A stretch of 64,000 bases of DNA from an uncultured bacterium (GTDB lineage: Bacteria; Patescibacteriota; Saccharimonadia; UBA4664), in the NCBI GenBank assembly GCA_963720265.1, contig CAVRET010000001.1, positions 5,916 through 69,915 on the forward strand, read 5' to 3'. Both the position numbers and the translations under genes were made by a program. The notes below the pieces were generated by a model, which was not told where the DNA came from, did no database searches, and was given only the letters and a program-made list of their open reading frames with translations. Numbering within the stretch: position 1 is the first letter of the stretch; the number at the start of each line of letters is the position of its first letter. Shown here piece by piece: positions 1 to 34,143 of this stretch.

Positions 1-112
1 GGAACATACCGGCATGCTGGTGGTGGTGTCGGTTACCAGCACAAACGGTACGGATGACCTGGGATCGTTTGTGAATGTGATCAGCGGCTCGCTGAAGTGG
101 GTGGCGTCGTGA
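1..112 (+). CDS. 3' end of an upstream gene, truncated by the window edge; function unknown
   Basis: Frame-2 open reading continues from the window edge to a TGA at 110-112 (…SVTSTNGTDDLGSFVNVISGSLKWVAS*). No start is visible. Confidence 0.25.
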   Translation, partial: EHTGMLVVVSVTSTNGTDDLGSFVNVISGSLKWVAS

Positions 113-126
113 ACTGGCACGGAATC

Positions 127-1164
127 ATGGTGTGGTTGGGTGCATTATTGCTTTTGGCGAGTTTGCCAGCGAGTACTGATTACAAGCTCAATTCATATGG
201 CTTTGGCAATGGGGGAACGGCGAATTCGTCATCGACCAACTACCGTGTGAACGGGATAGCGGGTGAGCAGGCCGGATCGGGCGCGAGCACGAACTATAAG
301 GTCGGGGCGGGCGAAAATTATCTGAAGCAGGCAAATGTGCCGATCGTGACGTTATCAAATCCCAGCAGCTGGTATGACAAGCTTTCGCTCGTGATCGACC
401 CGCAGAATAATCCGTCGGATGCTGAGTTTGTGGTGGAGATCTCGACTGACAATTTTGTAACCACGGAGTATGTGCAGAACGATTTTACGGTGGGCTCGAC
501 CTTGAGCTCGGCCGACTACATGACGTATGCCGCTTGGGGCGGGGCGAGCGGTGTGACCTTGCGGGGGCTTTTACCTTCAACCGTGTACTCGGTAAAGGCG
601 GCGGCTATTCACGGCGCGTTCACTGAGTCGCAATTTGGGCCCGTGTCGACGGCTTCCACGGTGTCGCCCGAGTTGTCATTTAGCATTAGCGTGGCTACGA
701 CCTACACGCCGACCTCGCCGCCATATGAGGTGGATTTTGGCGACCTGCTGGCCGGAACTGTGGAGACGGCGCCGAAGAATGTTTGGTTTACGCTCGATAC
801 CAATGCTGATAACGGTGCCATGATTTTTGGCGACGGCCAAAACGGGGGACTCACCAGCGCCTCGACCAGCCACACTATTGCTTCATCGTCGGCTGATTTA
901 TCAACCCTCACCGAAGGCTTTGGGGAGCAGGATGTGAGTGCAACTCAGACCTCGGGCGGGCCGCTTGCCACGGTGGCGCCATACAACGTCACTGGCACAA
1001 ATGTAGGCCAGGATTACACCTCGCTCGATGAGTGGTTTGTGACCGGGGCCCCGATTATCGGCGGCCTGGCTGAGTTGAGCTTGCTGGCTAAGAGCAGTAC
1101 ACTCACGCCTTCGGCCTCGGATTATTCTGAGACACTAACGGCCGTGGCGGCCGGCAGCTTCTAG
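127..1164 (+). CDS. Secreted Thr/Ser/Gly-rich surface protein, first WxL-like paralog of locus A
   Basis: ORF 97..1164; the likely start is the ATG at 127, giving signal peptide MVWLGALLLLASLPA. Low-complexity T/S/G/N-rich body. The C-terminus AVAAGSF ends in an aromatic residue like the other paralogs. Shares an SSSTNY/SSSTDY motif with the 25255..26091 protein. Confidence 0.55.
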   Translation: MVWLGALLLLASLPASTDYKLNSYGFGNGGTANSSSTNYRVNGIAGEQAGSGASTNYKVGAGENYLKQANVPIVTLSNPSSWYDKLSLVIDPQNNPSDAEFVVEISTDNFVTTEYVQNDFTVGSTLSSADYMTYAAWGGASGVTLRGLLPSTVYSVKAAAIHGAFTESQFGPVSTASTVSPELSFSISVATTYTPTSPPYEVDFGDLLAGTVETAPKNVWFTLDTNADNGAMIFGDGQNGGLTSASTSHTIASSSADLSTLTEGFGEQDVSATQTSGGPLATVAPYNVTGTNVGQDYTSLDEWFVTGAPIIGGLAELSLLAKSSTLTPSASDYSETLTAVAAGSF

Positions 1165-1234
1165 ATGGCCTGTGGAAAAGTTTTCGGAATGGGCCTTACT
1201 GGCGGGTGTTGTGGCCATGACTGTTGTAAAAGTG

Positions 1235-1263
1235 TTGACACCTTCCGGCCTTGCCAATAAACT
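1235..1263 (+). promoter_or_regulatory. Sigma70-like promoter candidate (TTGACA-N17-TAAACT) upstream of the 1345 gene
   Basis: A TTGACA hexamer, a 17-nt spacer and TAAACT were read directly. They lie about 80 nt upstream of the ATG at 1345, which has a purine-rich RBS (AAAGAG). Confidence 0.4.
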
Positions 1264-1344
1264 GGAGCGTAAGAAGTAAAGATTTAAAACGAAACTTCCT
1301 GTACTGAGCCTCACGGCAAGTAAACACAACAACCAAAGAGTCAA

Positions 1345-2634
1345 ATGCAAAAACGTTCACAAAAGCTAGTAATAGGAATCTCGGTAGCAGCGCTGATCTT
1401 GGCGGTGTTTCCTCAGTTTGCCGGCAAAGCGAATGCTTCGAGCCTGCCGCAGTTTGGGACTGTGGTGGTGCGGCTGGATAATGACACCTCGGCAGCCTAC
1501 TCGGGCGGTTCCGTGTGTATCGCCACCCCTGCGGTAACCTCAGGCGTTACCGGCTTTGGCACCGAGAATTACGTAGATATCGGCTTCCCAGATACGGATG
1601 GTGTGACTTCAGGTCAAGACTTTCAAGTGCAGGACACGACGCTGACGAACTGGATTACGAGTACAACTCCGCCGGCTAGTCCTGGTACCGGTAGTGCGTA
1701 CTGGCCGACAATCAATATCGGTGGTACCGGTGTGGCACCGGCGGGCTGGCCTAGCATTGGTACGAACGCGGTGGCCGCTACCAATGGCTCGTACACGCTT
1801 GGTGACCCACAAACCCTCAAGGTCGTGCGGTTTGCCACGGGCAACCTCACGGCCGATAAAACCTATTGCTTCGATTTCCGCTCCGGCACAAACTGGCCGG
1901 GTTCCGCTGAAACCTCATCAACCTATGCACTTCAGGTGTCACATGTAGGCACGAACGGCTATATCGAGGATGTGCCGGGATACGTTGAGACCTACCACTG
2001 TTCCTCCGGTTGCTCAGCAGTGGGGGCAGGCCAGGGTATCGAATCGAGCAACTGGGGCACGCAGGTCAGTGCTAACAATCAGATCGTGGTATCGGCGGTC
2101 GTGCCTCCAATCTTTGAAATGGACTTTGCCTCCAACATTGACTCATTTCCAACTAACTTGAACCCGAACAGTGTTACGACAACTACGGGCAATACCGTCG
2201 TCGTGAAGACGAACGCGAAAGGAGGTTGGTTCGTATGGACCAAGAGCGCAAACCAGGCACTAACATCCGTGTCCTCCGGAGGTTCGATACCAAGTGTAGG
2301 GTGGGGCTCGACGCCCGACACCCCCACGGCGCTCGTGGCCGGAACGCCCGGATACAACCTGACAGTAGGAGTAACCGCGAATGTGAACGGCGCAGGCACG
2401 ACGAAATGCACCCCAGCAGTCACGGCAGAGTACGCCGGTGTGCTCACAAGCTTCCAGGGTGGTGAACTGACCCCCAACTGGGAAATGGCAGCCACCTGCT
2501 CTACCGTCACGCCTCCCGGCACAGACGGCGGCACGGACGTAACCTTTAATGAAAACGCCGCCATCTCGTTCAGCACCCCAGCCGCATCTGATTACACTGA
2601 CACCATTTACGTGACAGGAGCCGGCCAATTCTGA
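1345..2634 (+). CDS. Secreted WxL-like surface protein (C-terminal …TDTIYVTGAGQF)
   Basis: N-terminal signal peptide (MQKRSQKLVIGISVAALILAVFPQFAGKANA). Conserved blocks AVVPPIFE, KTNAKGGWFVW, NQALTSVSSGGSIPSVGWGS and a terminal YVTGAGQF. Clear paralog of 2766..3860. Confidence 0.7.
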   Translation: MQKRSQKLVIGISVAALILAVFPQFAGKANASSLPQFGTVVVRLDNDTSAAYSGGSVCIATPAVTSGVTGFGTENYVDIGFPDTDGVTSGQDFQVQDTTLTNWITSTTPPASPGTGSAYWPTINIGGTGVAPAGWPSIGTNAVAATNGSYTLGDPQTLKVVRFATGNLTADKTYCFDFRSGTNWPGSAETSSTYALQVSHVGTNGYIEDVPGYVETYHCSSGCSAVGAGQGIESSNWGTQVSANNQIVVSAVVPPIFEMDFASNIDSFPTNLNPNSVTTTTGNTVVVKTNAKGGWFVWTKSANQALTSVSSGGSIPSVGWGSTPDTPTALVAGTPGYNLTVGVTANVNGAGTTKCTPAVTAEYAGVLTSFQGGELTPNWEMAATCSTVTPPGTDGGTDVTFNENAAISFSTPAASDYTDTIYVTGAGQF

Positions 2635-2691
2635 TCGCAATGCTCTAGATTTACTCCGGTTCACGCTCGATATTAAGCTCACATAATTCTT

Positions 2692-2718: not shown

Positions 2719-2765
2719 TTATGCTTTCGGTAAACTGGATTCAATAGTTGTGACACGGAGAGTCA

Positions 2766-3860
2766 ATGAGGCCCACGCGCCTGTCTGGTGTACGAATTGG
2801 TCTGGTAGTTGCCTTACTTCTGGCTACCTTTGATGCCTTTATGCCGCTTGGTGCGATGGCGTCGACGGGGGAGCTCAAAACGACCATGATCCGGCTTGAC
2901 AATATGTCAGCGAGCACGGCCACGAAGGGGACCGTGTGCGTAGAAGGAGAAACCTCGACCGCGACTGACTATCTTCAGGTGACATTCCCGACTGGATTCG
3001 TTTTGGGTACAACTGCCAACTGGGCAACAACAACGACGCCACCGTCCGGGCCGGGCACCGGTAGTCTCTATTGGCCAAGTAGTGCGAGCGGCTTCCCGAC
3101 TTCTCTCACGGCCACCAATGTGACTGGACAAACCGTCACGTTCCAATATGGGACTGCTACCAACATCGCTCTTACTGCCACTGTATATTGCTTTGATTGG
3201 ACAAATTCAGCAGCTCTTACCACATCGACTGCAGGGACCGATTTGCAAGGATCAGTAACCCTTGAGAACGCAACGCCCGCAGCGGTTGATGTTGGCGACT
3301 ATGCGCTCACGGTACTTACGAGCAACTCGATCACCGTGACTGCAGTGGTGCCTCCAATCTTTGAGTTTACGATGCCTGGTACTACGGATCAATTTACTAC
3401 AAACTTGAGTCCATCGGCTATCACGACCACGACTGGAGTGACGCCAACGATTAAGACTAACGCCAAAGGCGGGTGGATAATGTGGGCACATGATTCGAAC
3501 CAGGCACTAACTTCTGCGTCGTCAGGCGGATCAATACCAAGTGTGGGCTGGGGTTCGCCGGCCAATACTCCAACGACGCTCGTAGCAGGTACGGCTGGAT
3601 ATGCATTGAACGTTGTAAAATCGGTGGCCGGCGGTACGTTCTGTACTGAGACGGTCGATCCGGAATATGATACCGTAGGACATGGATCTGGTAATGGTGG
3701 TGAATTTTGGTCAAACTGGCAGCAGATTGGGCAGTGTGCGGGTGGACCGTCGAATGGTGACGGCTTGGAATTGCAAGAAGAGGCGACGATCGCGGTGACG
3801 ACTCCGGCCTCAACTGATTACACTGACACGATATATGTGACGGGCGCAGGTCTGTTCTGA
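2766..3860 (+). CDS. Secreted WxL-like surface protein (C-terminal …TDTIYVTGAGLF)
   Basis: Signal peptide. Shares AVVPPIFEF, KTNAKGGWIMW, NQALTSASSGGSIPSVGWGS and TDYTDTIYVTGAG with 1345..2634. Confidence 0.7.
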   Translation: MRPTRLSGVRIGLVVALLLATFDAFMPLGAMASTGELKTTMIRLDNMSASTATKGTVCVEGETSTATDYLQVTFPTGFVLGTTANWATTTTPPSGPGTGSLYWPSSASGFPTSLTATNVTGQTVTFQYGTATNIALTATVYCFDWTNSAALTTSTAGTDLQGSVTLENATPAAVDVGDYALTVLTSNSITVTAVVPPIFEFTMPGTTDQFTTNLSPSAITTTTGVTPTIKTNAKGGWIMWAHDSNQALTSASSGGSIPSVGWGSPANTPTTLVAGTAGYALNVVKSVAGGTFCTETVDPEYDTVGHGSGNGGEFWSNWQQIGQCAGGPSNGDGLELQEEATIAVTTPASTDYTDTIYVTGAGLF

Positions 3861-5068
3861 TGCGCGGAGCCGGGGGAGCACGTGGGCGTTTTGCGAAAAC
3901 GCAGCTGGCGCTAGCGTTTGTGTTTCTTGGATTTGCGAATTCGCCGACGGTGGCACAGGCGGCCAGTGCGCCGGCTCCGACGCCCAGCCCGGTGACTCGG
4001 CCTACGACGCCGCTTGATCTCACGACATCGCCGCTCCCAATTACGCTATCGGCCTCGCCGGGTGAGACGGTGTCGACGAGTATTAAAGTGAAGCAATCCG
4101 GTGGTGATACCGAGGCGCTGCAGGTTAATTTGCTCAAATTTTCGGCCTATGGCGAAGCAGGCGAGCCGGCACTGAGTTCGTTTGGGCCGGGTGATGATTA
4201 CAAGAATTGGGTAACCTTTGACAAGCCGACGTTTGAGGCGCCGAACGACGTGTGGCAAACCGTCAAAATGACGATTGCGTTGCCCAAAACAGCGGCTTTT
4301 GAGTATAACTACGCAGTGCAGTTCTCGCGGGTGGGGGACAACTTGTCGCCTGGCGGCAAGGACGTGGAGGGCGTGGCAGGCTCTACGGCGGTGCTAGTGC
4401 TTTTGAACGTGAACGCGCCGGGCGAGAATCGGTCGGTACAGCTTGATTCATTTGGCGTAGTGCGTAAGATCGTGCAATTTTTGCCGACCACGTTTGAAGC
4501 TAGATTTTACAACAACGGCAATGTGTACGTGCAGCCGACCGGCGATATTTTCATTACCCAGGGCAAGCACCAGGTCGGAATGGTGCTGCTTAACGATGAA
4601 CAGGGGAATCTGCTGGCCGGGACGCACCGCATTTATCAGATTAATTGGGCCGATGGGTTTCCGTATTATGAGCCGACCAGCCAACAGGGCAAGCCGGTGG
4701 TGGATCGGCATGGCAATGTCGTGCAGTCACTGAATTGGAACTTGCCAAATAGCACAACGGCTGCGCTAACAAGCGGCGTGGCTTCAACCACGAACCCGGA
4801 TATGGCTCAAGAAAGTACAAATCCGCTGTCGCGGTTTCGGTTTGGTGAGTATACGGCTAGGCTAGTCGCCGTGTATCAGGATAACTATGGCCGTGACGTG
4901 CCGATTACGGCGCAGATCAATTTCTGGGTCATTCCGTGGTGGCTGCTGCTAGCCCTGCTGGCAGTGCTGCTGGTGTTTGGATTTGCGATTTACTCGCTGG
5001 TTGCTAGTGTTATGCGCCGCCGGCGGCGGCTCGAGCGGATCAAACGGAGGCGCAGAAATAATAGCTAA
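3860..5068 (+). CDS. Surface protein with a C-terminal membrane anchor (DUF916/DUF3324-like architecture; Csc/Duf-type partner of the WxL-like proteins)
   Basis: Signal peptide (LALAFVFLGFANSPTVAQA) and a Pro/Thr linker. The C-terminus reads INFWVIPWW + TM helix LLLALLAVLLVFGFAIYSLV + basic tail RRRRRLERIKRRRRNNS. Same end architecture as 4977..6026 and 32140..33195. Confidence 0.65.
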   Translation: MRGAGGARGRFAKTQLALAFVFLGFANSPTVAQAASAPAPTPSPVTRPTTPLDLTTSPLPITLSASPGETVSTSIKVKQSGGDTEALQVNLLKFSAYGEAGEPALSSFGPGDDYKNWVTFDKPTFEAPNDVWQTVKMTIALPKTAAFEYNYAVQFSRVGDNLSPGGKDVEGVAGSTAVLVLLNVNAPGENRSVQLDSFGVVRKIVQFLPTTFEARFYNNGNVYVQPTGDIFITQGKHQVGMVLLNDEQGNLLAGTHRIYQINWADGFPYYEPTSQQGKPVVDRHGNVVQSLNWNLPNSTTAALTSGVASTTNPDMAQESTNPLSRFRFGEYTARLVAVYQDNYGRDVPITAQINFWVIPWWLLLALLAVLLVFGFAIYSLVASVMRRRRRLERIKRRRRNNS

Positions 5069-6026
5069 GGTCGGCAAAGCCGTACGGGCGGCGATCCTTG
5101 GGATTGCTGCCTCGCTGGTTTTGCTGGTCGGCTCGTGGCCCGCTGAGGTCAAGGCAGCACAGAGCACCGCTGGGTTTGCCATCTCGCCGATTTACCAAAA
5201 CGTTACGTTGGATCCCAATGCTCCGCAGTCGCACTATGTTGCAACTTTGTCTAATTCAACGACTTTTAGCCAGGCGTTTAAGCTCAGCACTGTTGACTTT
5301 GGAAGTTTAAATGAATCCGGCGGGGTGGCGTTTCTTGGTACTTCGTCTAGTGCGTTTGCACGACGGTTTGGACTGTCGGCTTGGATGCAATTAGATCAGA
5401 ACGCCGTCGTGGTGCCGGCTGGGGCGAGCGTGGATATCGGCGTTACCATTGTGAATTCTTCCAACCTGCAGCCGGGCGGTCATTACGGGGCGGTACTAGC
5501 CACGGCGCAAACTGCTCCCAACGGTTCGCCGCAGACGTCACGGGTGGGTGTGCTTGAGGTATTGTCTTCCCTGATTCTGCTGGTGAAGGGCGGTGGGCCG
5601 CCGCCGGATCTCGAACTCGCGGCGCAATCGGTTAACCGGATCGGCTCAAGATTTCCGACAGCTGTGACGGACCGCTTTCACAACATCGGCGACGTGCACG
5701 TGGTGCCGCGGGGCGTTGCGACGGTGCGCGACCCACTGGGAAAGGTGGTAGCGCGGGCCGCATTGAACGAAAACTCGGGCATTATCTTGCCGCAGACTTA
5801 CCGGCTGTACAGTGCGCCGTTTACACCAATGGCCCGGGCCGAGATTCCGGGCCGGTATCAGGTGATGACGAGCTACCGTTTCGACGGCACTGAGGCTACG
5901 AAAACGTTTACTAGTTGGTTTTGGTATGTGCCGCCGGTTTGGTTTTGGGTCGGCGTTGCGCTAGTACTGGCAGCGTTGAGCCTCATTGTGTGGTGGTACG
6001 TCCGGCGCCGGCGCGTTAGAGGTTAA
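4977..6026 (+). CDS. Second C-terminally anchored surface protein (DUF916/DUF3324-like); the 5' end overlaps the previous gene, so the real start is probably an internal GTG/TTG
   Basis: Signal peptide AILGIAASLVLLVGSWPAEVKA. PGGHYGAVL motif shared with 32140..33195 (PGGHYGVVRF). C-terminus FWYVPPVWFW + TM VGVALVLAALSLIVWWY + VRRRRVRG. Confidence 0.6.
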   Translation: MDLRFTRWLLVLCAAGGGSSGSNGGAEIIAKVGKAVRAAILGIAASLVLLVGSWPAEVKAAQSTAGFAISPIYQNVTLDPNAPQSHYVATLSNSTTFSQAFKLSTVDFGSLNESGGVAFLGTSSSAFARRFGLSAWMQLDQNAVVVPAGASVDIGVTIVNSSNLQPGGHYGAVLATAQTAPNGSPQTSRVGVLEVLSSLILLVKGGGPPPDLELAAQSVNRIGSRFPTAVTDRFHNIGDVHVVPRGVATVRDPLGKVVARAALNENSGIILPQTYRLYSAPFTPMARAEIPGRYQVMTSYRFDGTEATKTFTSWFWYVPPVWFWVGVALVLAALSLIVWWYVRRRRVRG

Positions 6027-23135: not shown

Positions 23136-23150
23136 CCGATCGATCATTGA

Positions 23151-25254: not shown

Positions 25255-26091
25255 ATGAGAGGGTGGGGACGACAGTTTGCATGCGTGTTTTTGGCATCGC
25301 TCGTAGTGTCGGGCGTGGCTTTGGCGACCTCAGACCCGACCATGACGAGCACAAGCTGGAGCGCGGTCGAGACCGAGTTGGGCGGGAACGGCTGCAACAA
25401 CTCTGCCTCAGGTTGCGGAGTTTCGACCGACTATTCGTTGAAACCGAGCACTGATGACGGCGGCGCAAGCGCGGGCGAAGCGGCGGTAGGGAATTCGAGT
25501 TCTACGGACTACCAGACCAACGCCGGCTTTAACACGACGGCCCAGCCGGGGTTGGCGATGACGGTCAATTCGTCATCGATGAACCTCGGTGTGCTTTCTA
25601 CCGCAACAACGAGCTCAACAACCGCGACCTTTACGGTTTCGGATTATACGTCGTACGGCTACATTGTGCAGATATACGGCAATCCTCCCACGTATGGAGG
25701 CCATACCTTAACCGCGATGGGTAACAACACCTCACCCGCAACGGCCGGGACAGCAGAGCAATTTGGTATTAATCTGCGAGCGAACAACAGCCCAAGCGTT
25801 TCGGGATCGGCGGACCCGCTTGAGGTGCCAGACAATGAGCCGTTTGGATCGTCCAAGTTTAGTTATGGTCAGGCGGGGAATTACGCCCAGGGGGGTACAA
25901 CGTATGGTACGAACCGGACATACACGGTACCTAATGAGTACACCTATAGTTCAGGCGATACGATTGCTTCGTCATCGCAGACTACCGGGCCGACGCTGTT
26001 TACTATAAGTTTCCTGGCGAACATCAAAAACAATACTCCGGCCGGTGTTTATACCGGCAGTTTGAGCTTAATCGCGACCGGAACGTATTAA
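25255..26091 (+). CDS. Secreted WxL-like surface protein, first paralog of locus B (C-terminal …YTGSLSLIATGTY)
   Basis: ORF 25135..26091; the likely start is the ATG at 25255 (MRGWGRQFACVFLASLVVSGVALA signal peptide). Shares EQFGINLRANNSPSVSGSADP with the locus B paralogs (FGINLRANTSPS) and SSSTDY with 127..1164. Confidence 0.6.
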   Translation: MRGWGRQFACVFLASLVVSGVALATSDPTMTSTSWSAVETELGGNGCNNSASGCGVSTDYSLKPSTDDGGASAGEAAVGNSSSTDYQTNAGFNTTAQPGLAMTVNSSSMNLGVLSTATTSSTTATFTVSDYTSYGYIVQIYGNPPTYGGHTLTAMGNNTSPATAGTAEQFGINLRANNSPSVSGSADPLEVPDNEPFGSSKFSYGQAGNYAQGGTTYGTNRTYTVPNEYTYSSGDTIASSSQTTGPTLFTISFLANIKNNTPAGVYTGSLSLIATGTY

Positions 26092-27531: not shown

Positions 27532-28686
27532 ATGAGTAGTAGAAGGGCAATCCTGCGGGATCATTACCTCGGTCTGTTCAGAAGGGCTGGCACCTGGGCT
27601 GGTCTCGTTTCGATCTTGGCAACAATGTTTGTGGCGGCTCCGGCGCTGGCGCTCGGCCAGCTTACGACGAGATCGGCAACGCTGAGTAATCCGGCGGCCG
27701 GTGCGACCACCGATAACATTGCCGTCAAGTTCACGCTTGGAACATCGGGACAAACGATTGCAGGTTTGGGATTTCAAATCTGCGACTCTCCATTGCCGGG
27801 AGCTTGTGCAAATACCGGTACCTCATCGGGTGAGAACTTTTCGACTGTATCAACGGTGGCTACTGTAGTCAGCGGTGGTGGTTCATGGACCAATGGTTCG
27901 ACTTGTAGCACTTTAGGCACAACCCACACAGGTAACTTGCTTGAGGTGAACTGTACTTCACAAGCAGTGACAGGAACGCCGACTGCAACAGTGACGATAA
28001 CCGGTGTAACCAACCCGTCGGCTAATGGCGAGTGGTATATACGTGTGAACACCTACACCGCAGCCAACGATGGTGGTACTGACACTGACCAGGGTGCAAT
28101 GGCGGTTGACACGAACAACCAGCTGAGTGAGTCGGCTACCGTTCAGGAAAGTCTGGTCTTTGCAGTTGGTTTGTCAGGGTCAACTTGCGCAGGCATCTCG
28201 GGTGGTCCGTCGGTGACCCTGAGCAATTCTTCGCCTATGTCTACCGCTTCGACTGCCGCAGGTACTGGTCTCCTATGCGCGAACACAAACGCCGGTTCTG
28301 GCTATGTCATTGCTTATAACGGCGCTGCTTTCGCCGGAGGCGGCACAACCTTTCCGACGATACCGTCTCCAACAACTGGATTCACATCAACCGCTGGTTC
28401 GCAACAGTTTGGCTTCAACCTCGTCGATGTTGCTGAGAATGAAGTGAGTGGTAGTAGTTCTGTTGGCAAATGCGACTCCGGTGCCGGCGCCGATACAGGT
28501 TCATATTGCACGTCAAGCAAATATAACTACGACACGTCCGCAGGCTTCCACCAGATCGCATCAAGTGAAGGTGCGCCTAGCAATGACACGATCTACACGG
28601 TGACCTATAAGGCAAACATTGACAACACAGTCCAAAAAGGTACTTATACAGCTACGCAGACGTTCGTTTGTACTGGTACGTTTTAA
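27532..28686 (+). CDS. Secreted WxL-like surface protein (C-terminal …KGTYTATQTFVCTGTF)
   Basis: Signal peptide, then a conserved post-cleavage motif QLTTRSATLSN. Shares the QESLVFAVG block, TNAGSGYVIAY and QQFGFNL with its paralogs. Confidence 0.7.
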   Translation: MSSRRAILRDHYLGLFRRAGTWAGLVSILATMFVAAPALALGQLTTRSATLSNPAAGATTDNIAVKFTLGTSGQTIAGLGFQICDSPLPGACANTGTSSGENFSTVSTVATVVSGGGSWTNGSTCSTLGTTHTGNLLEVNCTSQAVTGTPTATVTITGVTNPSANGEWYIRVNTYTAANDGGTDTDQGAMAVDTNNQLSESATVQESLVFAVGLSGSTCAGISGGPSVTLSNSSPMSTASTAAGTGLLCANTNAGSGYVIAYNGAAFAGGGTTFPTIPSPTTGFTSTAGSQQFGFNLVDVAENEVSGSSSVGKCDSGAGADTGSYCTSSKYNYDTSAGFHQIASSEGAPSNDTIYTVTYKANIDNTVQKGTYTATQTFVCTGTF

Positions 28687-28719: not shown

Positions 28720-29877
28720 ATGCCGAGCAGAAGTCAAATCCTGAAAACGCACTATGTAAAAGTATTACAGAAGGCAGCAACGTGGGTTGGGCTTGGTTCC
28801 CTGGTGGCGATGACTCTGGTGGCGGCACCGGCTAGCGCGGGCGGGGCTCAGATTACGAATCGTTCAACGACCTTAAGTAGCTCAAGTGCAGCATCTAGCA
28901 ATGCGACGACATCGTATGCGTTGAGCTTCAAATTACCTTCGAGTGGCGCAACTATTGAGGCGTTGATGTTCCAGGTCTGTACCTCGCCGCTGGAGACAAC
29001 GTCTTGCTCGACTCCTACGGGCGCGTCTTTGAGTGCGGGTCCGGTAACACTATCGGCGCAGGGCGGGCAGTTTTCCGGCTGGACGCTGGGTGCTGGTACG
29101 CCACCGGCGCCGACTGCGAACACGGCCTATATTTTTAATGCCTCCGGTTTTTCTGAAAATACCTCAACTACCCAAGCGTTGACTTTCAACAATATCCAGA
29201 ACCCAACTACCGTAAATCAGGAATACTACGTTCGCATAACTACGTATACGGGATACAACGGTAGCGGCGGTACGGGTGAGCAAGACTTTGGCGCGATGGC
29301 GGTTGCAACCACTCAGTCGCTGAGTGTAGACGCTAATGTGCAGGAGTCGCTCGAGTTTTGTGTGGGCACGGTTTCGGCGCCGTCTAACTGCGGGGCCGAA
29401 TCGGGTAGCACCGTGAATATCGGCAGTGGCACCGATAACGTGTTGTCGTCGTCTGCTCCGTCGGGTGCCATTTCGACGATGATTGCTGACACTAATGCTA
29501 CGACCGGGTATGTTATTACGTACTATGCGGGCAATCTGTCGTCGTCAAGCGATACGATTACAGCGATTGCCGGCACTCCGACAACGTTCCCGTCGGCTGG
29601 TACGGCTGCGTTTGGCATTAATTTACGCGCAAATACGAGCCCAAGTATTACGAACTCGGCTGATAAGGCCGGCTCCGGATCGGGAGCTGTGGCGGCTAAC
29701 TACAACACCGTCAACCAGTTTGCCTTTGTGCCTTCTACCACTACCACGGTGGCAACGGCTAGCGCTCCGACCGTGGCTAACACCTACACGGTGTCTTATG
29801 CCGCTCAAGCTGGATCGACGACAAAGCCTGGCGCCTTTGCCACGAGTTTCAACTATGTGGCGACCGGCACATTCTAA
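28720..29877 (+). CDS. Secreted WxL-like surface protein (C-terminal …PGAFATSFNYVATGTF)
   Basis: Signal peptide plus QITNRSTTLSS, QESLEFCVG, TNATTGYVITY and AAFGINLRANTSPS. Paralog of its neighbours. Confidence 0.7.
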   Translation: MPSRSQILKTHYVKVLQKAATWVGLGSLVAMTLVAAPASAGGAQITNRSTTLSSSSAASSNATTSYALSFKLPSSGATIEALMFQVCTSPLETTSCSTPTGASLSAGPVTLSAQGGQFSGWTLGAGTPPAPTANTAYIFNASGFSENTSTTQALTFNNIQNPTTVNQEYYVRITTYTGYNGSGGTGEQDFGAMAVATTQSLSVDANVQESLEFCVGTVSAPSNCGAESGSTVNIGSGTDNVLSSSAPSGAISTMIADTNATTGYVITYYAGNLSSSSDTITAIAGTPTTFPSAGTAAFGINLRANTSPSITNSADKAGSGSGAVAANYNTVNQFAFVPSTTTTVATASAPTVANTYTVSYAAQAGSTTKPGAFATSFNYVATGTF

Positions 29878-29905: not shown

Positions 29906-31030
29906 ATGAAGACAAAACCACTCACAAAAACACTCATTGCAAAACTATCGATACTTGGGCTGCTGGCTTCGACTTTCGTGCCATTGGTTGCGAATGCGGC
30001 AACGGGTCAGCTTTCACCGCGTAGTGCGACGCTCAGTACTTCGGTGGCTGGTGCGACGGCTGTGACAGCCACATTTAAGTTTACGCCGAGTGCGGCTAAC
30101 AGCGGCGCGACCATTAAGGGCATCAAGTTTCAGATGTGCAATTCGCCGGTAGAGACGACAACTTGTACGATCCCCGACGGCACCTCGACCATGGCGTCGG
30201 CCACGGCTGGAAGCGAGTCGGGAACGGATATGACAAATACATATGGCAGTCCATCGTATAATGGCGCGACGGATGTCACATTTACGAATGCGACCGGGAA
30301 CGTGTTTAATTCTGGCGACGGCATCGAAACATTTGCGGTGCAGAATATCACCTTGCCTGCAACTGCAAATACCGAATTTTACTTCCGTATCACGACGTAT
30401 AACAGTAGCTCGACCTTTAATGGCGCGACCGAGGTGGATTACGGCGGTATTGCGGTCAGTACCGCGCAGCAGATTACCATAACCGGCACAATGCCGGAAA
30501 GCCTGGTGTTCTGTGTCGGCACGAGCGGCTCGAATTGCGGCAACATTACCGGCTCGAGCGTGGCACTGGGTACGTTTAGCCCAACGTCGACGAATACTGG
30601 TACGAGCGTCATGGATGTGAGTACGAATGCCGGGTCGGGGTATGCCATTACGCTCAGTGGGACGGTGCCGACCTCGGGTTCGAATACGATTCTGGCCATG
30701 GGGACGCAGAGCGCCAACTCGTCCGGCTGTGCGGTAAGTTGTACCTCAACGACCGGCACGAGCCAATTTGGCAGCAATGTGCGCACTAACACTTCGCCCA
30801 GCGTGGGTGCCGATGTAACGCCGACCGGCGGCGGCTTCAACGGCGCAGGCTCAGGCGGCTACAATACGCCAAATAGCTTCCGTTTCTTTACGGGCGATAC
30901 GGTGGCGGGCTCGAGCCAAGTGAGCAACGCACAGTTGTTCACCAATTCTTACCTTGTGAACGTAGCAGGATCGCAAGCGGCTGGTCTGTACACCGCGACC
31001 ATGACGTATATTTGCACGGCTACGTTCTAA
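29906..31030 (+). CDS. Secreted WxL-like surface protein (C-terminal …AGLYTATMTYICTATF)
   Basis: Signal peptide plus QLSPRSATLST, PESLVFCVGTSGSNCG, TNAGSGYAITL and SQFGSNVRTNTSPS. Confidence 0.7.
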   Translation: MKTKPLTKTLIAKLSILGLLASTFVPLVANAATGQLSPRSATLSTSVAGATAVTATFKFTPSAANSGATIKGIKFQMCNSPVETTTCTIPDGTSTMASATAGSESGTDMTNTYGSPSYNGATDVTFTNATGNVFNSGDGIETFAVQNITLPATANTEFYFRITTYNSSSTFNGATEVDYGGIAVSTAQQITITGTMPESLVFCVGTSGSNCGNITGSSVALGTFSPTSTNTGTSVMDVSTNAGSGYAITLSGTVPTSGSNTILAMGTQSANSSGCAVSCTSTTGTSQFGSNVRTNTSPSVGADVTPTGGGFNGAGSGGYNTPNSFRFFTGDTVAGSSQVSNAQLFTNSYLVNVAGSQAAGLYTATMTYICTATF

Positions 31031-31061
31031 ATAACGGCCGCAGCTCGGGAACAGCGACATA

Positions 31062-32108
31062 ATGGAAACAAACAAACAATCCAGGTTTGCCCGATTCATC
31101 ACCTTGGTGGTCATGGGGCTTATGTTGTGCGTGTCGACTGGGTCGGTTCAGGCGGCGGGGCTGTCGAGCCGTTCGGATACAATGAGTACGTCGCAGGCGA
31201 GCGTGACAGCTACGCATGTGTTTGCGTTTACAACCGCGACCACGGCTAACATTGGCTCGATTGGGCTGACGTTTTGCACGACGGCCAACGGGAGCTGCAC
31301 AATGCCGCTTGGCCTCGTAACCACAAGTGCGACTCTGACGGGCCAAACCGGGATTAGCGGGTTTACACTGAACAACGCAACCAACGGCGCGCCTTTCATT
31401 TTGAACAACGGCGCGCCGCAGGTGACCTTAAACACTGCGGTGACGGCGACACTGACCGGCGTAACCAACCCATCGGCCGTGAACACGACGTTTTTCGTGC
31501 GCATCACAACTTACACAGGCACAGATGGTGCGACCGGACCAGTGGATACGGGTAATGTGGCGGTGTCGACCGCGCAGCCGATTCAGTTGACCGGCGTAAC
31601 GCCGGAAATCTTGGTGTTTTGCGTCGGTATCACGATTACGAGCGACTGCACTACGGTGAGCGGCAACTCGATTGACTTTGGTGATTTTGACCCGTTGTCG
31701 ACCAAATCGGGCACCAGCGTGATGCAGGCGAGTACCAATGCCGGTGGCGGCTACAACGTTACAGTGAATGGTACGACCTTGCAGTCGGGCGCCAATAGTA
31801 TAGGGGCATTGGCCGCGCAGACCGCATCGGCGACTGGTGCGCCGCAATTTGGCCTTAACCTGCGGGCCAATACGACCCCGGCGGTCGGAGCTGACCCGTC
31901 GACCGGTAGCGGCGCAATCGGCACGTATAGTGCTCATTATGGTACGGCTAACCAGTATCGGTTTGTGACCGGTGATGCGGTCGCGACATCGGCCGGACCA
32001 AGCAATGCTAACACGTTTACTTCGAGCTACATTGTGAACATTCCGAGCTTGCAGGCGGCGGGTACTTACACGTCGACCATGACGTACATTTGCACGGCCA
32101 ATTTCTAG
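31062..32108 (+). CDS. Secreted WxL-like surface protein (C-terminal …AGTYTSTMTYICTANF)
   Basis: Signal peptide plus GLSSRSDTMSTS, PEILVFCVG, TNAGGGYNVTV and PQFGLNLRANTTPA. Confidence 0.7.
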   Translation: METNKQSRFARFITLVVMGLMLCVSTGSVQAAGLSSRSDTMSTSQASVTATHVFAFTTATTANIGSIGLTFCTTANGSCTMPLGLVTTSATLTGQTGISGFTLNNATNGAPFILNNGAPQVTLNTAVTATLTGVTNPSAVNTTFFVRITTYTGTDGATGPVDTGNVAVSTAQPIQLTGVTPEILVFCVGITITSDCTTVSGNSIDFGDFDPLSTKSGTSVMQASTNAGGGYNVTVNGTTLQSGANSIGALAAQTASATGAPQFGLNLRANTTPAVGADPSTGSGAIGTYSAHYGTANQYRFVTGDAVATSAGPSNANTFTSSYIVNIPSLQAAGTYTSTMTYICTANF

Positions 32109-32139
32109 ACCGATTGCAGGTCCCCTGGTTGGCGGTTGC

Positions 32140-33195
32140 GTGAGCGTTATCTTGTGCGATACACTGAGAGCAATGCGTAAGTGGTTTGTGGGTAGCTTTA
32201 TCGGTGCAATGCTGGCGGCAGCTGTTGTAGTGCCGTGGGGTGTACTGGCGGCTACAACGGGCTCAACCTCGCCGGGTGGGGCAGCCTCAACCAGTAGTGG
32301 CTCACCGGGCCAGGGCCTGGAGATTTCGCCGCCGGTGGTTGAGCTATCAGCAAATCCCGGCCAGACGGTAACTGTTCCAATTGACGTACGCGATATTACG
32401 AGAGGTGAGCTGATCGCAAAAGGTCAGGCCGATGACTTCGGTGCTAGCAGTAACGAGAGCGGGCAGCCGCAAATCCTGCTGAACGAGAATGGCGAGACCC
32501 GTTATTCGCTGAAGTATTGGATTCCTTCTGTGCCGGATATGGATCTACAACCAGACCAGCTGAAAACAGCTGACATTGTTATCAACGTGCCGGCCAACGC
32601 AGAGCCCGGCGGCCACTACGGCGTGGTTCGTTTTACCGCGGTGCCGCCAAATTTGGCCGGGACAGGCGTGGCGCTGTCGGCCAGTGTGGGGACGTTGATC
32701 CTGCTAACGGTCAATGGTCCGGTCACGCACAATTTGACTTTGGTGCAATTTTCGAGTGGGCTCCAAAATAACAAGACCGACAACTGGACGAGCAAAAGCT
32801 CGTTCGAGACCGGTCCGGTTGATTTTCTCGTTCGCTTACATAATGGGGGTACGGTCCACGAACAGCCGAGCGGGCAGATTGTGGTGAAGAATATGTTTGG
32901 GCGTCAGGTTTCGACCATGACGGTCAACTCCACTGGGGGCAATGTATTGCCTGATAGCATTCGGCGGTTCACCACTGCAATGAGCAATAAGAAGTTGTTT
33001 GGCTACTACTCGGCTACACTATCGCTGACCTACGCGAAGACAATGCGTGTGAACGGCAGCCTGCATTTTTGGGTGATTCCGTGGATGCTCGTGCTCACCG
33101 TACTCCTCCTTATTGTGATCCTGTTCTTCGCGCTGCGTTGGGCGCTGAAGCGATACAACGAGCACATCATTTCCAAGGCGGGCGGGCGCCGGTAA
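32140..33195 (+). CDS. C-terminally membrane-anchored surface protein (DUF916/DUF3324-like), locus B partner
   Basis: Signal peptide, ISPPVVELSANPGQTVTVPIDV, and PGGHYGVVRF. C-terminus LHFWVIPWM + TM LVLTVLLLIVILFFALRWAL + KRYNEHIISKAGGRR. Same architecture as the two locus A anchored proteins. Confidence 0.65.
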   Translation: MSVILCDTLRAMRKWFVGSFIGAMLAAAVVVPWGVLAATTGSTSPGGAASTSSGSPGQGLEISPPVVELSANPGQTVTVPIDVRDITRGELIAKGQADDFGASSNESGQPQILLNENGETRYSLKYWIPSVPDMDLQPDQLKTADIVINVPANAEPGGHYGVVRFTAVPPNLAGTGVALSASVGTLILLTVNGPVTHNLTLVQFSSGLQNNKTDNWTSKSSFETGPVDFLVRLHNGGTVHEQPSGQIVVKNMFGRQVSTMTVNSTGGNVLPDSIRRFTTAMSNKKLFGYYSATLSLTYAKTMRVNGSLHFWVIPWMLVLTVLLLIVILFFALRWALKRYNEHIISKAGGRR

Positions 33196-33198
33196 GCC

Positions 33199-34143
33199 AT
33201 GCTGGGCCACGAACACTCTGGGCGGTTGCGGCCGCATACCCACACAACGTATGCGGCCTTGACGTTTATGCTCCTACTGGTGGGGGTATTGCTCGTGGGC
33301 TTGAGTTGGGCGGCGGAGGCGGCGCCGCCGGCGGTCAATCCGCAATCCGGGTCGATCGGTCTTTCGGGCACGGTTCCGGGCAAGCCGCCCAGCAGCGCCG
33401 CAACGATCCTGACGCCTTCCGACGGCACGCACACCAGTACGATCCCGTTGACCGTTTCAGGCACGTGCCCGGCCGGTGATTTTGTTGATATTGAGAAAAA
33501 TAACGTGTTTGCGGGTGCGGCTGAGTGCGGGGATAACGGCACCTTTAGCGTTCAAGTTGATCTATTTAGCGGGATTAACACGCTCGTGGCGCGGGTGGCC
33601 GATGCGCTGGGGCAATTTGGGCCGGATTCGGCCGGCGTAACTGCGTATTATGATGCGCCGACGCCGGCCAATGGTGCGAGCACGGTTCAGCAACTGTTTC
33701 TCACAACCGCAACCACTATTTTGGGAGGGAATCCGGGCCAGGGCTTTGCGCGCTCGGTAACGATTAACGGAGGCGTAGGTCCATACGCTGTGAGCTGGGA
33801 CTTCGGGGATGGCGCAACGAGTTTGGCCAGTGCCTCAACTACCGGCATTGTGAGCTCAAATCATTCGTATACGCGGCCGGGCATTTACAATGTTATCGTG
33901 CGGGTCACAGATAGCACCGGTTCGACTGCTTACTTACAAGTGCTGTCAGTGGTGAACGGGCCGGTGGCGGCATATGGCGCGAGTGGCGCTTCAGGCGTGG
34001 GTGCGATTACCGGTGGTTTGGTGGGGGCATGGCCGCTGTATAGTATCGCAGTGCTAATGGTGGGCGTGTTTTGGCTCGGCGAGCTAAGGGAAGGGCGCAA
34101 ACTGCGCAAGCTGCGGGAGTTGCAGGAGCGATCTTTGGTATAA
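33199..34143 (+). CDS. PKD-domain surface protein with an N-terminal signal anchor and a C-terminal TM plus basic tail
   Basis: WDFGDGATS…SHSYTRPGIYNVIVRVTDSTG is a classic PKD-domain motif. C-terminal TM (LYSIAVLMVGVFWLG) followed by EGRKLRKLRELQERSLV. Confidence 0.55.
   Translation: MLGHEHSGRLRPHTHTTYAALTFMLLLVGVLLVGLSWAAEAAPPAVNPQSGSIGLSGTVPGKPPSSAATILTPSDGTHTSTIPLTVSGTCPAGDFVDIEKNNVFAGAAECGDNGTFSVQVDLFSGINTLVARVADALGQFGPDSAGVTAYYDAPTPANGASTVQQLFLTTATTILGGNPGQGFARSVTINGGVGPYAVSWDFGDGATSLASASTTGIVSSNHSYTRPGIYNVIVRVTDSTGSTAYLQVLSVVNGPVAAYGASGASGVGAITGGLVGAWPLYSIAVLMVGVFWLGELREGRKLRKLRELQERSLV

What the first reader, a model, noticed from the sequence alone, without database searches (positions are those of the whole stretch)
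1..34143. Two paralogous loci resembling a divergent WxL/Csc-type cell-surface complex: secreted ...Y-x-x-T-G-T-F proteins plus C-terminally anchored partners
Eight secreted paralogs fall in two loci. Locus A is 127..1164, 1345..2634 and 2766..3860. Locus B is 25255..26091, 27532..28686, 28720..29877, 29906..31030 and 31062..32108.

All eight share internal blocks (VPPIFEF/PESLVFC; TNAKGGW/TNAGSGY; FG.NLRANTSP). All end in a terminal strand ending in an aromatic residue: YVTGAGQF, YVTGAGLF, FVCTGTF, YVATGTF, YICTATF, YICTANF, LIATGTY.

Each locus is followed by genes for proteins with a signal peptide and a C-terminal [FW]W[VY][IV]PxW + TM helix + Arg/Lys tail: 3860..5068, 4977..6026 and 32140..33195. 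A PKD-domain anchored protein also follows at 33199..34143.

This gene pairing mirrors Firmicute WxL loci: WxL-domain proteins with a C-terminal …YxTTLTWTLxDAP, and DUF916/DUF3324 proteins with a C-terminal TM anchor. Here the terminal motif is different (GTYTATQTFVCTGTF versus GTYxTTLTWTL) and no small LPXTG protein is present.

If this genome is CPR/Saccharibacteria-like, such a system has not to my knowledge been described there.
Basis: partly seen in the sequence, partly recalled or inferred. Interest (0 to 1): 0.8.

Follow-up and report, generated by a model that had tools for sequence, protein, structure and literature searches.

The report
CPR Pam pilus operons, two modules
The two loci encode the recently described "Pam" pilus of candidate-phyla-radiation bacteria: secreted pilins that link by strand exchange, helped by membrane-anchored chaperones.

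Summary
The genome is a Saccharimonadia (CPR) bacterium.

**Locus B (25255-34143)** is a typical Pam pilus operon, as described in the 2026 preprint 10.64898/2026.03.03.709456 and in NCBIfam release 20:
- PamT tip pilin
- four two-domain pilins carrying the CPR_Pam_pilin_C domain
- one chaperone with two Ig-like domains and a C-terminal membrane anchor
- the PamR anchor protein

**Locus A (109-6026)** is a second, much more divergent module: a tip-like protein, two pilins and two chaperones. No NCBIfam Pam model detects it. Profile comparison and synteny in many metagenome contigs tie it to the same system. The window edge cuts it; an independent assembly shows its own PamR-like gene just upstream.

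**The WxL/Csc reading is half right.**
- The secreted proteins show no WxL similarity, and no LPXTG protein is present.
- The preprint does not mention this link.

Verdict: a new member of a known kind, with moderate interest.

The parts
109..1164 (+). A1: tip-like subunit of the locus-A module. It has a signal peptide, a PamT-like N-terminal S-T-[DN]-Y repeat region, an FN3-like middle part (assigned by eye only), a linker-like strand (SPELSFSIS) and an A-family C-terminal domain ending AVAAGSF.
   Evidence: Public call is 351 aa. NCBIfam PamT matches the N-terminal part only, E 3.4e-6. An A-family HMM built without window sequences gives 50.7 bits over residues 173-345. An A1-like gene precedes A-family pilins in many metagenome loci.
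1345..2634 (+). A2: divergent two-domain pilin (A family), 429 aa, six Cys, ends YVTGAGQF.
   Evidence: 39% identical to A3 by BLASTP, E 3e-61. Scores 266 bits against the A-family HMM. No NCBIfam or Pfam hit.
2766..3860 (+). A3: divergent two-domain pilin (A family), 364 aa, four Cys, ends YVTGAGLF. Its stop codon overlaps the start of the chaperone gene (TGATG).
   Evidence: The family has 292 representative clusters at E<=1e-3. None of 62 members hits an NCBIfam Pam model. hhalign against the locus-B pilin family: probability 90%, E 1.7e-6. The overlap is seen.
3345..3368 (+). Putative donor (linker) strand of A3, VVPPIFEF.
   Evidence: A193, V195 and F199 are nearly invariant in the 62-sequence alignment. 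The strand aligns with MPESLVF of the B-family pilins in hhalign. The donor-strand role is inferred from the cryo-EM description of PamA/PamB.
3860..5068 (+). A4c: membrane-anchored chaperone with two Ig-like domains (PamC/D-like, WxLIP-like). It has a roughly 50-residue insertion in its C-terminal domain, the FWVIPWW motif, a TM helix and an Arg-rich tail.
   Evidence: 50.9 bits against a chaperone HMM built without window sequences. BLASTP vs B6c: 5e-11. TM segment at residues 351-387.
5007..6026 (+). A5c: second membrane-anchored chaperone of locus A, with FWYVPPVW, a TM helix and an RRRRVRG tail.
   Evidence: Public call is 339 aa (P0397). 50.3 bits against the chaperone HMM. 28 of 43 family members match PF06030, best E 3.4e-6. 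Homologue P0513 carries a precomputed PF06030 hit.
24207..25163 (-). N318: divergently transcribed protein with an N-terminal membrane anchor and a Gly/Thr-rich beta-repeat ectodomain. It is a conserved neighbour of both module types. Its role is unknown; it may be the 'tail fibre-like' neighbour named in the preprint.
   Evidence: A homologue sits divergently upstream in L001, L150, L143, L126, L128 and L159, and upstream of locus A in L205 (phmmer 4e-23). No Pfam, NCBIfam or PDB hit.
25255..26091 (+). B1: PamT, a single-domain tip pilin. It has a signal peptide, an S-T-D-Y repeat region and a C-terminal truncated-Ig domain, with no linker strand. It ends LIATGTY.
   Evidence: NF058579 PamT: E 1e-57, 195 bits (curated cut-off 240), profile positions 6-241 of 241. 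NF058581: E 4e-37.
27532..28686 (+). B2: two-domain Pam pilin.
   Evidence: NF058581 CPR_Pam_pilin_C: E 4.4e-20, 72 bits, above the cut-off of 55.
28720..29877 (+). B3: two-domain Pam pilin.
   Evidence: NF058581: E 1.4e-27, 96.6 bits.
29906..31030 (+). B4: two-domain Pam pilin, the one modelled here. Layout: N-terminal beta-sandwich (residues ~39-185), linker strand (196-205), C-terminal domain (214-374).
   Evidence: NF058581: E 1.6e-38. AF2 model pLDDT 84. 878 homologues, some on the same contigs as the chaperone homologues.
30491..30520 (+). Putative donor (linker) strand of B4, MPESLVFCVG.
   Evidence: E198, L200, F202, V204 and G205 are invariant in 39 sequences. It is an isolated strand (200-205) between the two domains in the AF2 model. 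The role is inferred from the PamA/PamB cryo-EM description.
31062..32108 (+). B5: two-domain Pam pilin.
   Evidence: NF058581: E 2e-48, 164 bits.
32173..33195 (+). B6c: membrane-anchored chaperone with two Ig-like domains (PamC/D-type), with FWVIPW, a TM helix and a basic tail.
33199..34143 (+). PamR: RbmA-like terminator/anchor with a signal peptide, two Ig/PKD-like domains, a C-terminal TM helix and a basic tail.
   Evidence: NF058578 PamR: E 1.2e-88, 296.8 bits (cut-off 300), profile positions 2-292 of 297. PKD_4: E 8e-10.

Best explanation
Both loci encode modules of the CPR-specific Pam pilus, a surface filament built without an usher or a sortase.

**Shown here**
- Locus B has the full gene set in the order PamT, four two-domain pilins, one chaperone, PamR.
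- Locus A is a divergent second module: a tip-like A1, two A-family pilins and two chaperones. Its own PamR-like gene lies just upstream of the window.

**Inferred from the cryo-EM and AlphaFold work on Ca. Mycosynbacter amalyticus**
1. All components are exported by Sec and their signal peptides are removed.
2. Each pilin has an N-terminal beta-sandwich, a conserved linker strand (PESLVFCVG or VPPIFEF) and a C-terminal Ig-like domain that lacks one strand. That domain ends in the conserved aromatic strand.
3. The membrane-anchored two-Ig chaperone fills the groove of a newly exported pilin with one of its own strands.
4. The linker strand of the next pilin then displaces the chaperone strand (donor-strand exchange). 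The filament therefore grows from its base.
5. PamT, which has no linker, caps the distal tip.
6. PamR inserts its N-terminal strand into the last pilin and ties the filament to the membrane through its TM helix.

**Likely function:** long thin fibres for contact with the host bacterium.

**Added here:** the chaperones are remote homologues of Firmicute WxLIP (DUF916-DUF3324-TM). [quoted passage not shown]
For: **NCBIfam**
- PamT: E 1e-57.
- CPR_Pam_pilin_C above its curated cut-off in B2-B5: E 4e-20 to 2e-48.
- PamR: E 1e-88.

**Published system:** described.

**AF2 models**
- Pilin: two beta domains with an isolated, invariant linker strand.
- Chaperone: two Ig-like domains plus a TM helix.

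**Synteny**
- B-type order is conserved in L001 and L002.
- A-type order (N318(-), PamR-like, A1, pilin x1-2, chaperone x2) recurs in at least six independent metagenome contigs and in the organism's own upstream DNA.

**Link between A and B pilins:** hhalign 90%, E 1.7e-6. The A-family HMM detects B2, B4 and B5 full-length and collinear.

**Other features**
- Tight operon spacing and a TGATG overlap between A3 and A4c.
- Even numbers of Cys in A2, A3 and B3, compatible with the paired cysteines reported for PamA and PamB. B2, B4 and B5 carry odd numbers once the signal-peptide Cys of B5 is set aside.
- No sorting signal in 1-36000. No usher family among the Pfam results for the proteins I scanned.

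**WxLIP link:**
Against: - PamT (195 vs 240 bits) and PamR (296.8 vs 300 bits) fall below NCBIfam's equivalog cut-offs.
- None of A1-A3 or 62 A-family relatives reaches any Pam model. A1 has only an N-terminal PamT match at E 3.4e-6, and A1-A3 show no pairwise BLAST significance to B1-B5.
- No chaperone-pilin complex was modelled here. No filament has been seen in this organism.
- I could not obtain the M. amalyticus sequences, so orthology to PamA, PamB, PamE, PamC and PamD individually is untested.
- The PamA/PamB structures are not in the PDB copy searched. The pilin model finds only generic Ig folds.
- A1 has a linker-like strand, so it does not fit the 'tip without donor strand' picture.
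- An IS element separates pamT from the pilin genes in locus B and may disturb expression.
- I found no ATP synthase genes among the ten largest ORFs I scanned downstream. The preprint reports them as a conserved neighbour.
Confidence: 0.85

Rival explanations
1. This is a true WxL/Csc-type complex. The secreted paralogs would attach non-covalently to the cell wall through a WxL-like C-terminal domain. The anchored WxLIP-like partner would hold them there, and no filament would form.
For: - The anchored partners are remote DUF916/WxLIP homologues with the same architecture: signal peptide, two Ig domains, TM helix, basic tail.
- Both systems pair several secreted beta-rich paralogs with such a partner.
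- WxLIP is predicted to donate a strand into WxL.
Against: - No WxL similarity in any secreted protein or in 39 homologues, even at E<=10.
- hhalign gives 2% probability, and HMM scores equal reversed decoys.
- There are no W-x-L motifs and no LPXTG protein.
- Locus B proteins match the Pam pilin, PamT and PamR models, and members of that family form filaments by cryo-EM.
- The DUF3324 half is not detectable by sequence.
Confidence: 0.08
2. These are families of independent, non-polymerising Ig-fold surface adhesins or S-layer-like proteins. They happen to be clustered with anchored Ig-fold proteins, and there is no chaperone or strand-exchange relationship.
For: - Fold searches of the pilin model return mostly generic adhesin Ig domains: MSCRAMMs, integrin and cohesin.
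- No complex was modelled here.
Against: - The invariant inter-domain linker strand and the invariant C-terminal strand are not explained by independent adhesins.
- The fixed gene order tip - pilins - chaperone - anchor recurs across many genomes.
- NCBIfam places the proteins in a family with solved filament structures.
Confidence: 0.05
3. This is a classical chaperone-usher pilus, or outer-membrane beta-barrel proteins, of a diderm host. The terminal aromatic residue would be an outer-membrane targeting signal.
For: - C-terminal aromatic residue on all eight secreted proteins.
- The chaperone fold resembles FimC/PapD.
Against: - No usher or outer-membrane assembly gene appears among the Pfam and NCBIfam results for the window proteins I scanned.
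- The chaperones carry a C-terminal TM anchor.
- The pilin model is made of two beta-sandwich domains, not a barrel.
- The organism is Saccharimonadia, which by established knowledge lacks an outer membrane.
Confidence: 0.01

Closest known systems
Pam pilus of Candidatus Mycosynbacter amalyticus (PamA/B/E pilins, PamT tip, PamC/D anchored chaperones, PamR anchor). Sources: bioRxiv 10.64898/2026.03.03.709456 and NCBIfam NF058578, NF058579, NF058581.
   Same: - Locus B has the same components in the order PamT - pilins - chaperone - PamR. This matches the accession order T(289) A(287) E(285) D(284) R(282) in M. amalyticus; that comparison is an inference from accession numbers.
- The pilins have the same layout: N-terminal sandwich, linker strand, truncated-Ig C-terminal domain.
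- The chaperones carry a C-terminal TM helix.
- There is no usher.
- The class is the same, Saccharimonadia.
   Different: - There are four similar-sized pilins (348-385 aa) and no 55-kDa PamA-sized one.
- The system is split into two modules about 19 kb apart, each with its own PamR-like and N318-like genes.
- The locus-A pilins, the A1 protein (PamT-like N-terminus + FN3-like part + linker + C-terminal domain) and their two chaperones are not recognised by the NCBIfam Pam models.
- An IS5-family element sits between pamT and the pilins.
- I found no ATP synthase genes among the downstream ORFs I scanned.
WxL / Csc clusters of Firmicutes (WxL proteins plus WxLIP = DUF916-DUF3324-TM). Sources: Siezen 2006 and Hassan & Williamson 2023 (PMC10599100); PDB 9i1y.
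   Same: - The anchored partner has the same architecture, and its N-domain is a remote homologue of DUF916 by sequence profile.
- WxLIP is its best structural match in the PDB.
- Both systems pair it with several secreted beta-rich paralogs.
- In both, the partner is predicted to donate a strand that completes the secreted protein's beta-sandwich (for WxL, for Pam).
   Different: - The secreted proteins are not WxL domains by any sequence test.
- No dual W-x-L motif and no LPXTG CscD-like protein.
- No detectable DUF3324 sequence signal.
- Pam subunits polymerise through an internal linker strand, whereas WxL proteins are thought to sit on peptidoglycan as monomers.
- The phylum is different.
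Classical chaperone-usher pili (Pap/Fim, Csu, CFA/I).
   Same: - Donor-strand complementation by a two-Ig-domain chaperone followed by donor-strand exchange.
- A tip subunit without a donor strand.
- A conserved C-terminal strand bordering the acceptor groove.
   Different: - No outer-membrane usher.
- The chaperone is membrane-anchored rather than soluble in the periplasm.
- The donor strand is an inter-domain linker, not an N-terminal extension.
- The pilins have two domains.
- No Pfam PapD_N or PapD_C match.
- The host is a monoderm.
Sortase-assembled Gram-positive pili.
   Different: No LPXTG or pilin motif and no sortase in the loci. Assembly is non-covalent.

Membership tests
CPR Pam pilus system | Two-domain pilins carrying the CPR_Pam_pilin_C domain (NF058581), laid out as N-terminal sandwich - linker strand - truncated Ig-like C-terminal domain | tested here: met
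   B2-B5 score 72-164 bits against a cut-off of 55. The AF2 model of B4 shows the layout with an invariant linker strand. This holds for locus B only.
CPR Pam pilus system | The same pilin domain in the locus-A proteins A1-A3 | tested here: inconclusive
   No NF058581 match for A1-A3 or for 62 relatives. hhalign of the A family against the B family gives 90%, E 1.7e-6 over 195 collinear columns with controls <1%. The A-family HMM finds B2 at 17.5 bits, full-length.
CPR Pam pilus system | Single-domain tip pilin PamT (NF058579) | tested here: met
   B1: E 1e-57 over the full profile (6-241 of 241). Its 195 bits are below the equivalog cut-off of 240, so it is a PamT-family member but not certified as an equivalog.
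CPR Pam pilus system | FimC/PapD-like chaperone with two Ig domains and a C-terminal TM helix (PamC/PamD) | tested here: met
CPR Pam pilus system | RbmA-like membrane-anchored PamR (NF058578) | tested here: met
   E 1.2e-88, profile positions 2-292 of 297, 296.8 bits against a cut-off of 300. C-terminal TM helix and basic tail. A second PamR-like gene lies upstream of locus A (phmmer 5.9e-49).
CPR Pam pilus system | No usher, no sortase, CPR host | tested here: met
   No such families in the Pfam or NCBIfam scans of the window proteins I tested. No sorting signal. Homologues are named Candidatus Saccharimonadia, Patescibacteria or Moraniibacteriota.
CPR Pam pilus system | Filament assembled by donor-strand exchange | not testable with these tools
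   This needs multimer prediction or cryo-EM. It is shown only for M. amalyticus PamA/PamB.
WxL / Csc cluster | Secreted proteins with a C-terminal WxL domain (PF13731, dual W-x-L) | tested here: not met
   None of 8 window proteins at E<=1 and none of 39 homologues at E<=10. hhalign of the pilin C-terminal domain against a 141-sequence WxL profile gives 2.2%. HMM scores are no better than reversed decoys.
WxL / Csc cluster | WxLIP N-domain (DUF916, PF06030) | tested here: inconclusive
   Below the Pfam gathering score (14-17 bits against 27.3; best E 3.4e-6). The matches are domain-length and recur in 28/38 and 28/43 members. hhalign 95.3%, E 2.2e-8. Reciprocal HMMs give 33-35 and 23.7 bits maximum against decoys <=7.6. 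This is remote homology, not family membership by Pfam's threshold.
WxL / Csc cluster | WxLIP C-domain (DUF3324, PF11797) | tested here: not met
WxL / Csc cluster | Small LPXTG protein (CscD) in a Firmicute host | tested here: not met
   No L[PA]x[TA]G + TM + basic tail in any ORF of 1-36000. The host is CPR.
Classical chaperone-usher pilus | Outer-membrane usher and soluble PapD-family chaperone (PF00345/PF02753) | tested here: not met
   No usher, PapD_N or PapD_C match in any scan. The chaperones are TM-anchored. The resemblance is of fold only.

The most novel reading that the evidence does not exclude
The membrane-anchored Pam chaperones of CPR bacteria and the WxLIP (DUF916-DUF3324-TM) proteins of Firmicute WxL/Csc clusters would belong to one ancient monoderm family. 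Members of this family are anchored proteins with two Ig-like domains that donate a strand to a secreted partner.

If so, three things follow:
- WxL clusters and Pam pili are evolutionary cousins.
- WxLIP would act as a PapD-like assembly chaperone or anchor for WxL proteins, rather than as a host-membrane-inserting adhesin.
- The A-type module seen here would be a second, unannotated Pam-like pilus class with its own tip (A1), anchor and two dedicated chaperones.

The Pam preprint does not mention WxL or DUF916. A full-text search for 'Saccharibacteria' with 'WxL' found no paper.
Probability: 0.4. Interest if true: 0.7.

Novelty: new member of a known kind. Interest (0 to 1): 0.45.

Why it matters
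Pam pili are thought to be the fibres with which parasitic CPR bacteria reach their host cells. They are the first donor-strand-exchange pili known to work without an outer membrane or an usher.

This window shows three things:
- A single Saccharimonadia genome can carry two deeply diverged modules. Current NCBIfam Pam models miss one of them, so the system is probably under-counted in CPR genomes.
- Each module has its own PamR-like gene and its own conserved N318-like neighbour. These are candidates for further components.
- The chaperones connect by sequence and structure to the WxLIP proteins of lactobacilli, enterococci and Listeria. That gives a testable origin for the CPR system. It also suggests a testable mechanism, strand-donating chaperone or anchor, for the poorly understood WxL clusters, which are implicated in adhesion and virulence.

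Tried and rejected
- **Single-sequence Pfam scans** of all twelve proteins gave no WxL, DUF916 or DUF3324 hit. The DUF916 signal appeared only when whole families were scanned.
- **PDB sequence searches** with B4, B6c and the chaperone profile found nothing meaningful.
- **Untrimmed hhalign runs** gave spurious E values of 1e-18 to 1e-30, driven by signal-peptide and TM segments. For example, the WxLIP TM helix matched the WxL signal peptide. I discarded these and repeated everything on trimmed ectodomains with reversed-profile and cross-domain controls.
- **The afdb50 fold library** was not available. I could not test the pilin or chaperone models against AlphaFold models of WxL or DUF3324 proteins.
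- **No WxL-domain chain** could be found in the PDB copy. A structural test of pilin C-terminal domain against WxL was therefore impossible.
I used a back-translated NQIDKxxxYFDL pattern instead.
- **M. amalyticus sequences** could not be obtained, so one-to-one orthology with PamA, B, C, D and E was not established.

Full report
**Observation**

The window has about 56% G+C. I found no tRNA and no Rfam match at gathering thresholds.

Exact look-ups show that A2, A3, A4c, B1, B4 and the PKD protein are identical to public gene calls on a 567,794-bp contig. Three starts need correction:
- A1 is publicly called as 109..1164.
- The second anchored gene is 5007..6026 (P0397; candidate starts).
- The third anchored gene is 32173..33195 (P0001).

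The reported motif blocks, the aromatic C-terminal strand and the [FW]W[VY][IV]PxW-TM-basic tail are all present.

Paralogy within each group is far beyond chance:
- B2-B5: BLASTP 1e-27 to 1e-66.
- B1 C-terminal domain against B2-B5: 1e-7 to 1e-17.
- A2-A3: 3e-61.
- A1 against an A-family HMM built without window sequences: 50.7 bits.
- The three anchored proteins to each other: 6e-6 to 3e-12.

No locus-A pilin is significantly similar to a locus-B pilin by pairwise BLAST. The 'eight paralogs' statement holds only at profile level.

**Organism and spread**

Homologues of the anchored protein B6c (more than 1000) and of the pilin B4 (878) come from metagenomes. Where they are named, the source is Candidatus Saccharimonadia or Saccharibacteria. 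Several B6c and B4 homologues share a contig. The A5c family also reaches proteins labelled Patescibacteria and Moraniibacteriota.

**What it is**

Single-sequence Pfam scans gave nothing for WxL, DUF916 or DUF3324. NCBIfam release 20 gave these matches:

| Protein | Model | E-value | Bits | Cut-off | Coverage |
|---|---|---|---|---|---|
| B1 | PamT (NF058579) | 1e-57 | 195 | 240 | full-length |
| B2-B5 | CPR_Pam_pilin_C (NF058581) | 4e-20 to 2e-48 | 72-164 | 55 | C-terminal ~150 residues |
| PKD protein | PamR (NF058578) | 1e-88 | 296.8 | 300 | profile 2-292 of 297 |

These models derive from a 2026 preprint (10.64898/2026.03.03.709456). That work solved cryo-EM structures of thin filaments of Ca. 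Mycosynbacter amalyticus and reports:
- The linker of one subunit fills the groove of the adjacent one (donor-strand exchange).
- PamC and PamD are FimC/PapD-like chaperones that carry a C-terminal TM helix.
- PamT is a single-domain tip.
- PamR is an RbmA-like membrane anchor.
- There is no usher.

My AF2 models agree with this:
- **B4 (pLDDT 84):** a beta-rich N-domain, an isolated strand at 200-205 within the invariant MPESLVFCVG, and a beta-rich C-domain ending in the invariant ...TATF.
- **B6c (pLDDT 85):** two beta-sandwiches followed by a long C-terminal helix.

The terminal aromatic strand is the last strand of the acceptor domain. Both assignments are inferred by analogy with the published structures.

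**Two modules**

Locus B reads N318(-), PamT, [IS element], four pilins, chaperone, PamR. Another Saccharimonadia contig has the same order without the IS (L001/L002).

Locus A belongs to a distinct family:
- A profile of A2+A3 finds 292 representative clusters.
- None of 62 members hits any NCBIfam Pam model.
- After removal of signal peptides, hhalign of this family against the locus-B family gives 90% probability, E 1.7e-6, over 195 collinear columns. These include the linker, the TNAxxG[WY] block and the C-terminal strand. Reversed controls give 0.3-0.8%.
- The A-family HMM detects B2, B4 and B5 weakly but full-length.

A metagenome scan returned 80 A-type loci. Annotated with local HMMs, they show a recurrent order: N318-like(-), PamR-like, A1-like, one or two A-family pilins, two chaperones.

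An independent assembly of the same organism (L205) is identical to the window up to position 11104. It shows that the window edge cuts this module. Upstream of base 1 lie an N318-like gene, a 184-aa gene, a PamR-like gene (5.9e-49 to the window's PamR) and a 256-aa TM protein.

A1 is unusual. It combines the PamT-like N-terminal S-T-[DN]-Y repeat region, an FN3-like segment (assigned by eye only), a linker-like strand and an A-family C-terminal domain.

By gene order, locus B resembles the pamT-A-E-D-R part of the M. amalyticus operon, and locus A may correspond to pamB-pamC. I could not test this without those sequences.

**The WxL question**

Scanning whole families against Pfam gave these results:
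- PF06030 (WxLIP_PGBD, formerly DUF916) was the most frequently matched family: 28 of 38 B6c-family members and 28 of 43 A5c-family members, best E 3.4e-6.
- The matches cover profile positions 21-120 of 121. The next family, NPCBM_assoc, matches only a 25-residue hairpin.
- One A5c homologue carries a precomputed PF06030 hit.

To compare profiles directly, I fetched 120 Firmicute loci with the back-translated WxLIP motif NQIDKxxxYFDL. From them I extracted 94 WxLIP and 141 small WxL proteins.

Untrimmed profiles gave spurious significance from hydrophobic segments, so all comparisons used ectodomains only:

| Comparison | Probability | E-value |
|---|---|---|
| PamC/D N-domain vs DUF916 domain | 95.3% | 2.2e-8 |
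| Reversed and cross-domain controls | 0.1-1.9% | - |
| C-domain vs DUF3324 | 7.6% | 0.0046 (not significant) |
| Pilin C-terminal domain vs WxL | 2.2% | not significant |

Decoy-controlled HMM searches agree:
- The PamC/D HMM scores WxLIPs up to 33-35 bits (median 12-14). Decoys reach at most 7.6 bits.
- The reciprocal search reaches 23.7 bits against 6.3 for decoys.
- Pilin-versus-WxL scores are indistinguishable from reversed decoys.

Hassan and Williamson (PMC10599100) report that AlphaFold2 predicts a WxLIP strand filling a gap in the WxL sandwich. That is the same principle as chaperone donor-strand complementation.

It fails for the secreted subunits, for DUF3324 and for the LPXTG component. 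The preprint does not mention WxL or DUF916. A full-text search for 'Saccharibacteria' together with 'WxL' found nothing.

**Mechanism (steps 1-6 are inferred from the M. amalyticus work; step 7 is my own interpretation)**

1. All components are exported by Sec.
2. The anchored chaperone captures each pilin by filling its C-terminal-domain groove.
3. The linker strand of the next pilin displaces the chaperone strand.
4. The filament grows from the base.
5. PamT caps the distal end.
6. PamR ends assembly and tethers the filament to the membrane.
7. The two modules may build two filament types, or two segments of one filament.

**Uncertainties**
- The PamT and PamR scores lie just under the equivalog cut-offs.
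- Locus A rests on profile-level similarity and synteny.
- I modelled no complexes.
- The IS5-family element between pamT and the pilins may affect expression.

**Verdict**

The finding is real and was well spotted. It corresponds to a system published and curated in 2026, so it is a new member of a known kind. Three points seen here are not in the preprint text I read:
- the unannotated A-type module;
- the conserved N318-like and 256-aa neighbours;
- the PamC/D-WxLIP homology.

Noticed in passing
window 26342-27251: An IS5-family insertion sequence of about 910 bp sits between the PamT gene and the first locus-B pilin. It has 25-nt terminal inverted repeats (26342-26366 and 27227-27251) and a transposase ORF at 26358-26855(-) (NF033580, E 1.5e-34). 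G+C drops to 0.49 here. In related contigs the two flanking genes are only about 100 nt apart.
   Followed up: partly
window ~11104 (giant ORFs 6593-11218 and 10473-17603): The window carries one extra A (GGAAGTC against GGAGTC) compared with an independent Logan assembly of run ERR11523669. There the gene is a single intact 3646-aa ORF (window 6662-17603). The apparent frameshift is either an assembly error or a strain variant. The protein is Gly/Thr/Ser/Asn-rich and repetitive, with no Pfam hit.
   Followed up: yes
window 24207-25163 (-), and L205 3813-4934 (-): This is a protein with an N-terminal membrane anchor and a Gly/Thr-rich beta-repeat ectodomain. It has no Pfam, NCBIfam or PDB match. 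It is a conserved divergent neighbour of both the A-type and B-type modules in many contigs. It may be the 'tail fibre-like' neighbour mentioned in the preprint.
   Followed up: partly
L205 5030-7347 (immediately upstream of window base 1): The organism's own upstream DNA holds a 184-aa gene, a PamR-like 304-aa gene and a 256-aa protein with an acidic cytoplasmic N-terminus and one TM helix. These precede A1. A 245-aa gene sits in the same position in L124. It may be an undescribed component of the A-type module.
   Followed up: partly
window 17604-22913 (+): A 1769-aa protein with Kelch repeats (PF01344, E 3e-16) lies between the two pilus loci, after the giant repetitive protein.
   Followed up: no
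window 6016-6477 (-): A small protein with an N-terminal hydrophobic segment and a weak type II secretion/type IV pilin match (T2SSG, E 0.009) is encoded convergently right after locus A.
   Followed up: no
window 34150-41332: parA and parB follow PamR with a 6-nt gap. Further downstream lie signal peptidase I (36262-36996, -), a LytR-CpsA-Psr protein (37090-38586) and an HtrA-like protease (40007-41332). I found no ATP synthase genes among the ten largest downstream ORFs I scanned, unlike the neighbourhood reported for M. amalyticus.
   Followed up: partly
window 27409-27438: A perfect 12-nt inverted repeat with a 6-nt loop (AGAAAAGCCGGG / CCCGGCTTTTCT) lies about 100 nt upstream of the first locus-B pilin gene, between the IS element and B2. 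It looks like a terminator.
   Followed up: no
L001 1959-3185 (-) and 9434-11363: In a related Saccharimonadia contig, two cohesin-domain genes lie next to the N318-like gene. Two PadR-family regulator genes flank the Pam chaperone gene. Neither feature occurs in the window.
   Followed up: no
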